From Candidatus Egerieousia equi (GTDB lineage Bacteria > Bacteroidota > Bacteroidia > Bacteroidales > UBA932): a DNA stretch of 35,754 nt. The notes below the pieces were generated by a model. The model did not search any database. It was given only the letters and a program-made list of their open reading frames with translations, and was not told the DNA's origin. Position 1 is the first letter of the stretch. Each line of letters opens with the position of its first letter. Of this stretch, positions 16,137 through 16,207 are shown piece after piece. Made by a program: the position numbers and the translations under genes. The DNA is taken from NCBI GenBank assembly GCA_018065035.1, contig JAGHUC010000068.1, forward strand, positions 1-35,754, written 5' to 3'.

Positions 16137-16207
16137 GCGGCAGTCACTTCATCTGAAAATAAGCGCCTTTCCGGGGCGCTTATTTTCAGATTCCAGTGAC
16201 CTGCCGC
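16137..16207 (+). repeat. nested palindromic element, family A (copy 1)
   Basis: GCGGCAGTCACTTCATCTGAAAAT-aaGCGCCtttccggGGCGCtt-ATTTTCAGATTCCAGTGACCTGCCGC. It begins 42 nt after the stop of the upstream + gene. Confidence 0.85.

What the first reader, a model, noticed from the sequence alone, without database searches (positions are those of the whole stretch)
16137..16207. Family A nested-hairpin element with compensatory covariation, three copies, always just 3' of plus-strand genes
Copies lie at 16137-16207, 17137-17214 and 22800-22870. Each has a partial 5' duplicate at 22757-22785. The outer imperfect stem of about 24 bp (GCGGCAGTCACTTCATCTGAAAAT / ATTTTCAGATTCCAGTGACCTGCCGC) is identical in all copies. 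The apical stem is aaGCGCC/GGCGCtt in copy 1 but ttCCGCC/GGCGGaa in copies 2 and 3. These are fully compensatory changes around an invariant loop TTTCCGG, which argues for selection on secondary structure (RNA or cruciform) rather than on primary sequence. All copies start 11-60 nt after a stop codon in the same orientation, and copy 2 is followed by T8. They generate spurious MRQSLHLK... ORFs. The behaviour is REP/BIME-like (terminator or mRNA 3'-stabiliser), and I do not recognise this as a described family in this lineage.
Basis: seen in the sequence. Interest (0 to 1): 0.6.

Follow-up and report, generated by a model that had tools for sequence, protein, structure and literature searches.

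The report
Terminator-like palindromic intergenic repeat family
The three hairpins are real copies of a multi-copy, strain-variable palindromic repeat found so far only in one horse-gut Bacteroidales lineage; it is built around a terminator-like stem-loop whose stem changes only by compensating pairs, so it is a new example of a known kind of bacterial repeat, not a new kind of system.

Summary
Observation confirmed. Three about 71-nt nested hairpins lie at 16137-16207, 17137-17207 and 22800-22870, all on the + strand, 41, 10 and 63 nt after stop codons.

The window is a whole MAG contig of 'Candidatus Egerieousia equi' (Bacteroidales). Syntenic contigs from other strains gave 13 full copies at six chromosomal sites; a seventh site has only truncated copies.

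Covariation holds. Five adjacent pairs of the apical stem show 2-3 Watson-Crick types each, with 26 doubly changed cells and none broken. This segment differs at 54% of positions between sites; the rest of the core differs at 6%.

The core is an A-tract, a stem closed by GCC/GGC, the loop TTTCCNG and a T-tract, which is the shape of a bidirectional Rho-independent terminator. A conserved imperfect 24-nt inverted repeat clamps it.

Six of seven sites are co-oriented with a gene and 10-95 nt past its stop codon. One site is inverted.

Copies vary in presence between strains, break short-read contigs, and sit in mosaics with other hairpin repeats.

No match was found in Rfam, GTDB representative genomes, JGI metagenomes, IMG/VR or plasmids.

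Best reading: a lineage-specific repeat like REP/BIME and the pneumococcal SPRITE. Terminator function and the means of spread are inferred, not shown.

The parts
16137..16207 (+). Family A copy 1 (site S1). Nested hairpin, apex variant v1 TAAGCGCC/GGCGCTTA, 41 nt after the stop codon of the transglutaminase-like gene (14731-16095).
   Evidence: R1 109.6 bits. Orthologous copies at L011:6065-6135, L013:6206-6276 and L004:1-49.
16155..16187 (+). Inner terminator-like hairpin of copy 1: A-tract, 8-bp stem closed by GCC/GGC, loop TTTCCGG, T-tract. The hypervariable compensated segment is 16160-16164 paired with 16178-16182.
   Evidence: -21.4 kcal/mol on its own. (alignment columns 35-39 with 53-58)..
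16100..16114 (+). Degenerate partial duplicate of the 5' flank plus the start of the 5' arm (CGCTTGACGCGTCAG), upstream of copy 1. It is missing in strain L011.
   Evidence: reading the sequences side by side.
17137..17207 (+). Family A copy 2 (site S2). Apex v2 ATTCCGCC/GGCGGAAT, loop TTTCCGT, 10 nt after the stop codon of the SIMPL/DUF541 gene (16371-17126).
   Evidence: 106.8 bits. Alleles in other strains.
17207..17214 (+). T8 run abutting copy 2. Strains L012 and L013 have part of a family D unit here, and L011 has a whole one, so the T-run is probably a deletion junction between two GTGACCTGCCGC boxes.
22800..22870 (+). Family A copy 3 (site S3). Apex v2, 63 nt after the stop codon of the M16 peptidase gene (19872-22736). 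At this same site strains L013 and L011 carry apex v4 GCTTTGCC/GGCAAAGC, and L012 has only a solo 5' arm.
   Evidence: 110.5 bits.
22744..22799 (+). Tandem partial units of about 29 nt (5' flank plus start of the 5' arm): 22744-22756, 22757-22784, and 22785-22799 leading into copy 3. The number of units differs between strains: window 3, L013 2, L011 1.
22878..22906 (+). Family E hairpin GGTCACGTTTTTTTTGTGAAAATGTGCCC, 7 nt after copy 3. The same module follows family A in most sites.
16224..16263 (+). Family C hairpin (TGTGCTCAAACCCC..GGGGTTTGCGCTCA) directly after copy 1. Part of the mosaic, not part of family A.
   Evidence: D3, I1-I3; strains L005 and L006 have a tandem of family C here in place of family A.
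12171..12203 (+). Fragment of a family D unit. Position 12204 is the empty counterpart of an all-repeat block of about 790 nt that includes a family A copy (site S4) in strain L011.

Best explanation
Family A is a lineage-restricted, multi-copy interspersed palindromic repeat of 'Candidatus Egerieousia' (Bacteroidales, animal gut). It is of the same general kind as REP/BIME elements, small MITEs and the pneumococcal SPRITE.

**Anatomy.** The core has the shape of a bidirectional Rho-independent terminator: an A-tract, an 8-9 bp stem closed by GCC/GGC, the 7-nt loop TTTCCNG, and a T-tract. A conserved imperfect inverted repeat clamps it, running from GCGGCAG(T)CAC on the left to GTGACCTGCCGC on the right.

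**Proposed mechanism (inferred).**
- The element sits just past stop codons. The inner hairpin plus U-tract ends transcription coming from either direction.
- Read-through RNA can close the whole 29-bp hairpin. That would block 3' exonucleases or offer a substrate for a double-strand-specific RNase.
- The termini and arms are kept in sequence because they are what gets copied or recombined, by an enzyme not identified here.
- The middle of the apical stem only has to pair, so it drifts by compensated changes.

**Shown here.** The structure, the covariation, the multi-copy and strain-variable nature, the position bias, and the mosaic context.

**Inferred, not shown.** Termination or stabilisation, and the way copies spread.
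For: **Real and non-random.** Three exact 5' arms against 0.00 expected. Fold z-scores of -6.7 to -9.1.

**Independent assemblies.** The same element occurs in NCBI MAGs, ENA assemblies and Logan assemblies of the species.

**Copy count.** A covariance model searched over about 255 kb of partly redundant loci finds 13 full copies at six sites, plus cut-off copies that add a seventh site.

**Contig breaks.** Six short contigs end or start inside the element: L004, L005, L006, L027, L030 and L032. This is what a genomic repeat does to short-read assemblies.

**Covariation.**
- 96.3% of cells are paired, against 31-44% in slid registers.
- Six pairs have changes on both sides (five apical, one outer), 27 cells in all, with none broken at those pairs.
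- 0 of 500 shuffles reached the observed covariation score. RNAalifold agrees.
- The variable segment differs at 54% of positions between sites, against 6% for the remaining 61 core positions.

**Terminator shape.**
- All six apex variants, and the divergent relative A2, fold alone at -16 to -21 kcal/mol with flanking A and T runs.
- The consensus terminator scan flags the inner hairpins of copies 2 and 3.
- Rho-independent terminators are used in Bacteroides (PMC7366714).

**Position.** Six of seven sites are co-oriented with a gene and 10-95 nt after its stop codon. No copy lies inside a gene.

**Mosaic and turnover.** Family A adjoins hairpin families C, D and E. Alleles between strains differ by loss or gain of whole modules at short direct repeats such as the 12-nt box GTGACCTGCCGC.

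**Precedent.** SPRITE is an interspersed repeat shaped like a Rho-independent terminator, enriched close to the 3' ends of coding sequences and clustered with other repeats (PMC3049150).
Against: - No transcript 3'-end data exist for this organism, so termination or stabilisation is untested.
- At site S7 the fumarase gene already has its own terminator-like hairpin upstream of the element. The element is therefore not needed there.
- One copy (S6) is inverted and lies about 72 nt upstream of a start codon.
- The outer arms would be transcribed only after the U-tract, so they cannot contribute to termination itself. Their strong conservation needs a separate explanation.
- The orientation bias of 6 of 7 sites is not significant on its own (two-sided binomial p = 0.125). 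It is also confounded with the probable leading strand, because GC skew is positive along most of the window.
- No transposase, no target-site duplication and no clean filled-versus-empty site pair was found. All strain differences seen can be explained by deletions between short repeats.
- Only about 73 kb of unique chromosome could be sampled.
Confidence: 0.6

Rival explanations
1. A single-strand-DNA hairpin element of the REP/REPIN type. A Y1 HUH transposase (RAYT-like, or IS200/IS605-like) encoded elsewhere in the genome would recognise the folded hairpin and its bulges on one DNA strand. On this reading the compensated stem and the strand bias reflect the needs of transposition, and the terminator shape is incidental or secondary.
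For: - The asymmetries of the hairpin are conserved: a bulged C, a TC/TCC internal loop and a C.T mismatch.
- It folds stably with DNA parameters.
- Six of seven sites share one chromosomal orientation, on the strand with positive GC skew.
- The termini are conserved even in the divergent relative A2, whose inner arms differ but still pair.
- TnpA_REP subclass 2.6 occurs mostly in Bacteroidetes, flanked by 'atypical secondary structures' that recur in the genome (PMC6006769).
Against: - No GTAG, GT[AG]G or CGTC foot next to the hairpin (PMC3733652).
- The arms are not themselves palindromic REP units, so this is not a REP doublet.
- No Y1 transposase, or any transposase, among the genes called in the fetched loci.
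- The bulge is not obligatory. The S5 copy has a perfect outer stem.
- Outer-arm substitutions are mostly uncompensated.
Confidence: 0.2
2. A decaying selfish MITE or palindrome with no host function. The arms would be the inverted repeats of an insertion sequence. Apex pairing would be kept by DNA-level processes, namely templated correction of quasi-palindromes and gene conversion between copies, not by selection. The position after genes would reflect only where insertions are tolerated.
For: - Inverted repeats with conserved termini.
- The same arms flank about 330 nt of other repeat units at site S7 in strains L024, L026 and others.
- Presence/absence and module shuffling between strains.
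- At site S3 the whole centre has been swapped between strains, which is consistent with gene conversion from S2.
- Regions downstream of coding sequences tolerate repeat insertions, as argued for pneumococcal repeats (PMC3049150).
Against: - The 54% versus 6% contrast in divergence inside a 71-nt unit is hard to obtain by conversion tracts, which would have to skip the centre.
- Five adjacent pairs change with no broken intermediate in 13 copies, whereas the outer arms do carry uncompensated changes.
- No parent IS and no target-site duplication was found.
Confidence: 0.13
3. A family of cis-regulatory or small RNAs (for example 3'UTR-derived sRNAs), in which the variable stem segment carries target or partner specificity.
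For: Strong structure with covariation. A location in 3' UTRs. Three G.U cells and no A.C cell on the + strand, which is very weak evidence.
Against: - It follows unrelated housekeeping genes.
- The variable bases are buried in a perfect stem, not exposed.
- No Bacteroidetes-type promoter motif lies upstream.
- Both strands fold equally well.
- No Rfam family matches.
Confidence: 0.05
4. Integron attC-like recombination sites that mark gene cassettes.
For: An imperfect palindrome with conserved ends and bulges and a variable but paired centre, lying directly 3' of genes in one orientation. Copies 1 and 2 bracket a single gene exactly 1000 nt apart.
Against: - No R''/R' core sites (RYYYAAC / GTTRRRY).
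- No integrase in the window or the loci (and the gene tables).
- The flanking genes are syntenic housekeeping genes, and a Bacteroidetes-type promoter motif precedes at least the gene after copy 2.
- The gene order is the same in strains that lack the element.
Confidence: 0.02

Closest known systems
[quoted passage not shown] 2011, PMC3049150)
   Same: An interspersed repeat whose predicted fold is a long stem followed by a T/U-rich tract. It has A-run and T-run ends around the stem, is enriched close to the 3' ends of coding sequences, mirrors the coding strand bias, clusters with other small repeats, and has no identified transposase or target-site duplication.
   Different: A different phylum and no sequence relation. 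Family A has an additional conserved 24-nt imperfect inverted repeat outside the terminator-like core, a GC-richer apex, and a sharply delimited hypervariable stem segment whose changes are all compensated.
REP / BIME of Enterobacteria and GTAG/CGTC-tagged REPs (PMC3733652); REPIN-RAYT systems (PMC3116915)
   Same: Extragenic imperfect palindromes, many copies, lineage-specific. They are arranged in mosaics with other conserved motifs, and subfamilies differ by paired stem changes. Proposed roles are termination and mRNA 3' protection. They vary between strains.
   Different: No GTAG or CGTC foot. The unit is about 71 nt rather than 20-40 nt. It is a nested hairpin, not a doublet of two palindromic REPs. 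No RAYT gene could be linked to it.
Small MITEs with structured transcripts (Correia/CREE of Neisseria, ERIC, RUP; review PMC10969869)
   Same: Terminal inverted repeats, size under 200 nt, intergenic, folding into long hairpins when transcribed. They can affect neighbouring genes and vary between strains.
   Different: No target-site duplication and no parent IS was found. No promoter or IHF site is evident. The centre is a terminator-like hairpin rather than unstructured filler.
'Atypical secondary structures' flanking TnpA_REP subclass 2.6 genes in Bacteroidetes (Quentin et al. 2018, PMC6006769)
   Same: The same phylum. Hairpin repeats that do not look like canonical REPs and that recur around the genome.
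   Different: That paper gives no sequence to compare in the text read. No tnpA_REP gene was seen in the 73 kb sampled, so the link is only a lead.
Integron attC sites
   Same: A palindrome with conserved ends, extrahelical bases and a variable but paired centre, lying 3' of genes in one orientation.
   Different: The core sites, the integrase and the cassette behaviour are all lacking.

Membership tests
REP (GTAG- or CGTC-tagged) / REPIN-RAYT | Conserved unpaired tetranucleotide foot (GTAG, GT[AG]G or CGTC) at one end of a 20-40 nt palindrome | tested here: not met
   The 5' flank consensus is CGCTTGRTT followed by GCGGCAG, and the 3' end is CTGCCGC. No such foot is present on either strand. 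The definition is taken from PMC3733652 and PMC6006769.
REP (GTAG- or CGTC-tagged) / REPIN-RAYT | Inverted doublet of two REP palindromes (REPIN) | tested here: not met
   The two arms are complementary to each other but are not themselves palindromes.
REP (GTAG- or CGTC-tagged) / REPIN-RAYT | A cognate Y1 transposase (RAYT) gene flanked by the repeats | not testable with these tools
   Only about 73 kb of unique chromosome could be reached, and no transposase was called in it. The species is absent from the scannable genome collection.
BIME-type mosaic | Palindromic units combined with other conserved motifs in variable arrangements in intergenic regions | tested here: met
   The combinations A+C (site S1), A+D (S2 in L012, L013 and L004), A+E (S3, S5, S6) and arms+D+D (S7), with arrays of period 51 and 84 nt nearby. 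This is a functional and architectural analogy, not sequence homology.
MITE | Terminal inverted repeats and small size | tested here: met
   Imperfect inverted arms of about 24 nt in a core of about 71 nt.
MITE | Target-site duplication flanking the insertion | tested here: inconclusive
   Filled and 'solo-arm' alleles at S3 and S7 were compared. No consistent direct repeat could be defined. The partial similarity between the 5' arm and the start of family E confuses the boundaries.
MITE | A parent IS with the same inverted repeats | not testable with these tools
   No whole genome is available. At S7 the same arms enclose about 330 nt, but the content is other repeats, not a gene.
Rho-independent terminator / SPRITE-like terminator repeat | GC-rich stem-loop immediately followed by a U-tract (here on both strands) | tested here: met
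   The inner hairpins fold at -16 to -21 kcal/mol and are flanked by A4-6 and T4-6. The scan flags copies 2 and 3.
Rho-independent terminator / SPRITE-like terminator repeat | Location close to the 3' ends of coding sequences | tested here: met
   Six of seven sites lie 10-95 nt after a co-oriented stop codon. One exception, S6.
Rho-independent terminator / SPRITE-like terminator repeat | Transcripts actually end at the element | not testable with these tools
   No RNA data were accessible for this uncultured organism.
Integron attC | R''/R' core sites (RYYYAAC ... GTTRRRY) and a nearby IntI integrase | tested here: not met
   The motifs are absent. No integrase domain was found in the ten window proteins scanned (12772-27498) or in the Pfam-annotated gene calls of the related loci.
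Any Rfam family | A match at or above the family's gathering score | tested here: not met
   No match over the whole window at gathering thresholds. In E-value mode only sub-threshold generic hairpin matches appeared, the best at 29 bits against a gathering score of 41.

The most novel reading that the evidence does not exclude
Family A and its divergent relative A2 would be the substrate of a so far undescribed hairpin-recognising recombination or transposition system in Bacteroidales, for example the uncharacterised TnpA_REP subclass 2.6. On this reading the conserved 7-nt termini (GCGGCAG/CTGCCGC), the bulges and the loop are the recognition and cleavage determinants. The hypervariable 5-bp stem segment would mark separately replicating lineages. 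The element would then be a self-propagating 'portable terminator' that the host has come to rely on for ending transcription units.
Probability: 0.12. Interest if true: 0.6.

Novelty: new member of a known kind. Interest (0 to 1): 0.35.

Why it matters
**Practical value.** The element explains spurious ORF calls (MRQSLHLK...) and contig breaks in MAGs of this gut lineage. Its covariance model could be used to mask or annotate it.

**Biological value.**
- It extends terminator-shaped interspersed repeats, known from pneumococcus, and REP/BIME-like mosaics, known mainly from Proteobacteria, to an uncultured Bacteroidales genus.
- It offers a compact natural experiment in compensatory evolution: a 5-bp window that is close to saturated with paired changes, inside an otherwise nearly invariant 71-nt unit.
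- If it terminates transcription in both directions, it would also be a ready-made terminator part for Bacteroidales genetics.

None of this overturns current understanding.

Tried and rejected
1. **Genome-wide copy count.** The outer-arm gapped pattern returned only 3 hits in GTDB representative genomes and 2 in JGI metagenomes. All are unrelated coding-like sequence and about the number expected by chance. A 17-mer of the 3' arm gave 4 unrelated hits in IMG/VR.
2. **Harvesting copies through spurious ORFs.** Searching the protein database with the two open frames of the element found nothing.
3. **Walking along contigs.** Cluster-member look-ups worked and gave about 73 kb of unique chromosome in several strains. 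All look-up caps are now exhausted, so no true genome-wide census was possible.
4. **Sequence libraries.** Rfam at gathering and E-value thresholds and distant blastn against plasmids gave no meaningful match.
5. **attC / integron reading.** Rejected on motifs, the absence of an integrase, and conserved housekeeping synteny.
6. **Invertible promoter (inverton).** Rejected. The loop has the same polarity relative to the asymmetric arms in all 13 copies, and the spacer is only about 25 nt.
7. **DNA-uptake-sequence pair.** Rejected. The 12-nt box GTGACCTGCCGC occurs only as the end of family A or family D units, always in the same relative orientation and at low density.
8. **Target-site duplication, or a clean empty site.** Not resolvable. 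The observed alleles are explained by deletions between short direct repeats (CTGCC, the 12-nt box).
9. **G.U versus A.C asymmetry as a test for RNA-level selection.** Three G.U cells against no A.C cell on the + strand. Too few to conclude anything.

Full report
**1. The observation**

The 5' arm GCGGCAGTCACTTCATCTGAAAA occurs exactly three times in the window, at 16137, 17137 and 22800. All three are on the + strand, and shuffles predict 0.00 matches. The repeat finder reports the same three-member family (D2).

- Each copy folds into one long nested hairpin as RNA: -48.1, -39.4 and -46.9 kcal/mol, z = -9.1, -8.5 and -6.7.
- The opposite strand folds equally well.
- The copies also fold with DNA parameters: -31.4, -24.5 and -28.1 kcal/mol.
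- The apical stem is TAAGCGCC/GGCGCTTA in copy 1 and ATTCCGCC/GGCGGAAT in copies 2 and 3. That is four flipped base pairs, all compensated.
- The copies start 41, 10 and 63 nt after the stop codons of a transglutaminase-like gene, a SIMPL/DUF541 gene and an M16 peptidase gene.
- T8 follows copy 2, and a TTG-initiated frame MRQSLHLK... is open through every copy.

The loop and the 3' arm are not strictly invariant. The partial 5' duplicate at 22757-22784 belongs to copy 3 only. The repeated unit extends beyond the stated coordinates on both sides.

**2. Where the window comes from and how more copies were obtained**

Exact protein look-ups show that the window is a complete 35,754-nt contig of a MAG named 'Candidatus Egerieousia equi' (Bacteroidales).

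The element could not be counted genome-wide. A gapped pattern of the two outermost arm segments found only chance hits in GTDB representative genomes, JGI metagenomes and IMG/VR. A search for its spurious peptides found nothing.

I therefore fetched syntenic contigs of other strains through exact protein look-ups. Together with the window they cover about 73 kb of unique chromosome in several strains. I aligned 11 copies (A1) and built a covariance model (R1). I searched all loci with it, 169,060 plus 85,972 bases.

**3. Sites found**

| Site | Where | Context |
|---|---|---|
| S1-S3 | The three window copies | 41, 10 and 63 nt after co-oriented stop codons |
| S4 | L011:1508-1578 | 95 nt after the stop of a conserved 72-aa membrane ORF, co-oriented. 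Part of an all-repeat block of about 790 nt that is absent at window position 12204 |
| S5 | L025:15760-15855 | About 42 nt after the stop of an Rce1-like gene, co-oriented |
| S6 | L026:3565-3661, minus strand; also the start of L027 | Between two + strand genes, about 72 nt upstream of an Fe-ADH start codon. This is the one inverted copy |
| S7 | L030 and L032, after the fumarase gene | Co-oriented. Both contigs end inside the element |

So six of seven sites lie just 3' of a co-oriented gene. That number is not significant by itself. It is also confounded with the probable leading strand, because GC skew is positive along most of the window.

Six short contigs start or stop inside the element. 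This is the usual signature of a genomic repeat in short-read assemblies. A rough extrapolation from about one full copy per 15 kb gives on the order of a hundred or more copies per genome. This is an inference, not a measurement.

**4. Covariation**

On the 13 full copies (A2), 96.3% of cells form standard pairs, against 31-44% when the 3' partners are slid by 1-3 columns.

- Six pairs show changes on both sides, 27 cells in all, with no broken cell at those pairs.
- No shuffle of 500 reached the observed covariation score. RNAalifold predicts the same helix independently.
- Five of the six pairs are adjacent in the apical stem (columns 35-39 with 53-58) and carry 2-3 Watson-Crick types each.
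- Six apex variants are seen: TAAGCGCC, ATTCCGCC, ACTTCGCC, ACTTTGCC (with a bulged C or a bulged A) and GCTTTGCC. Some are linked by single compensated steps.
- The sixth pair is in the outer stem of the S5 copy. There T to G pairs with the formerly bulged C, and the A is deleted, which gives a perfect stem.
- The other outer-arm substitutions (GCGACAG, GCGCCAG, CTGCAGC) are not compensated.

Between sites, the variable segment differs at 54% of positions and the remaining 61 core positions at 6%.

The picture is a short segment constrained only to pair, embedded in sequence that is conserved as sequence.

**5. Anatomy and likely mechanism**

The centre is an A-tract, a stem closed by GCC/GGC, the loop TTTCCNG and a T-tract. 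Every variant folds on its own at -16 to -21 kcal/mol. The consensus terminator scan flags the inner hairpins of copies 2 and 3.

This is the shape of a bidirectional Rho-independent terminator, and such terminators are used in Bacteroides (PMC7366714). The outer arms lie beyond the U-tract, so they cannot take part in termination itself. In read-through RNA they would close a 29-bp hairpin. At the DNA level they are the conserved ends of the unit.

Three further observations bear on the ends:
- The 12-nt right end GTGACCTGCCGC also ends an unrelated repeat of about 130 nt, family D, again directly after a small GC hairpin and a T-run.
- At S7 in several strains, the same left and right arms enclose two D units in place of the apex.
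- In strain L012, site S1 carries a divergent relative, A2. It has the same termini and the same core design but different inner arms that are still complementary.

**6. Turnover between strains**

- **S2** exists in three forms: hairpin only (window); hairpin plus part of a D unit (L012, L013; L004, which ends inside the unit, looks the same); and a D unit with the hairpin lost (L011). All are explicable as deletions between short direct repeats (CTGCC, the 12-nt box) from a composite ancestor.
- **S3** carries apex v2 in the window and v4 in L013 and L011, with different 3' flanks. This suggests replacement or gene conversion. In L012 only a solo 5' arm remains.
- **Partial units.** The number of about 29-nt partial units (5' flank plus arm start) before S3 differs between strains: 3, 2 and 1.
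- **S1** is occupied by family A, by A2, or by a tandem of family C, depending on the strain.

No target-site duplication, parent IS or transposase was found. Mobility in the strict sense is therefore not demonstrated.

**7. Comparison with known systems**

Nothing in Rfam matches. Full-text searches found no description of repeats in this genus or of comparable elements in Bacteroidales.

- **SPRITE** is the closest described concept. It is the pneumococcal Rho-independent terminator-like interspersed repeat, enriched near the 3' ends of coding sequences and clustered with the BOX and RUP repeats (PMC3049150).
- **BIME.** The mosaic context resembles the BIMEs of enterobacteria.
- **REP/REPIN.** Membership fails on the tested features: no GTAG or CGTC foot, and not a doublet of palindromes (PMC3733652).
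- **attC.** Membership fails on motifs, the integrase and cassette behaviour.

**8. Verdict**

The feature is real and non-random. It is best described as a new, lineage-restricted member of the known class of structured intergenic repeats, with a terminator-like core.

Confidence differs by claim:
- The structural constraint is well supported.
- The terminator or stabiliser role is plausible but rests on anatomy and position only.
- The means of spread is unknown.

Interest is moderate to low for a specialist. The sharply bounded, fully compensated hypervariable stem segment and the shared termini across modules are the points worth a follow-up once a complete genome and transcript data are available.

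Noticed in passing
window 12254-12342 and 25145-25335: Family B hairpins CGAGCAGGTTTGRCC..AACCTGCTCG. Two units lie at the first place and four units in a tandem array of period 51 nt at the second, between the ThiF-family gene and metG.
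   Followed up: no
window 16224-16263 and 35407-35614: Family C hairpins TGTGCTCAAACCCC-N8-GGGGTTTGCGCTCA. One lies right after copy 1, and three form an array of period 84 nt at the contig end. Strains L005 and L006 have a tandem of these in place of family A copy 1.
   Followed up: partly
window 12171-12203; L011:7060-7201; L024:11760-12004; L026:9990-10281: Family D, a repeat unit of about 130 nt with its own long inverted repeat (CGAACTTGCTG...CAGCAAGTTCG). It ends in a small GC hairpin, then T5, then the same 12-nt box GTGACCTGCCGC that ends family A.
   Followed up: partly
window 22878-22906; L025:15899-16078; L024 and L026, several places: Family E hairpins GGKCACRTTTT-N-AAAAYGYGMCC. 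They often form arrays of period 51 nt and commonly start 7 nt after the 3' arm of family A.
   Followed up: partly
L012:10880-11000 and 14370-14480 (corresponds to window 22870-25400): In strain L012 the aminotransferase-ThiF segment, plus an extra 301-aa gene, is inverted relative to the window. Pairs of a further hairpin repeat (GTGCTCAATACCC..GGGTATTGAGCAC, family F, absent from the window) sit at both ends of the inverted segment. This suggests a repeat-mediated inversion.
   Followed up: partly
L012:4146-4220 (site S1 of that strain): A divergent relative, 'A2'. It has the same termini (GCGTCAG...CTGCCG) and the same core (A6, CCATCGCC, TTCCCTG, GGCGATGG, T6), but inner arms that differ and are still complementary. 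R1 scores it at 39 bits. Only one copy was seen.
   Followed up: partly
window 10511-11806 (- strand): A 431-aa predicted lipoprotein gene present in the window but absent from strain L011. Window 9561-10495 and 11885-12203 align to L011:1-935 and 1172-1490.
   Followed up: no
window 11907-12125 (+ strand): A 72-aa ORF with a hydrophobic core, conserved with mostly conservative substitutions in strain L011 (1194-1412). It is probably a real small membrane protein gene and may be missed by annotation.
   Followed up: partly
L004-L007, L027, L030, L032: Many Logan and ENA contigs of this species are only 1-3 kb long and end inside family A or neighbouring repeats. The intergenic repeats are a main cause of the fragmentation of MAGs of this lineage.
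   Followed up: partly
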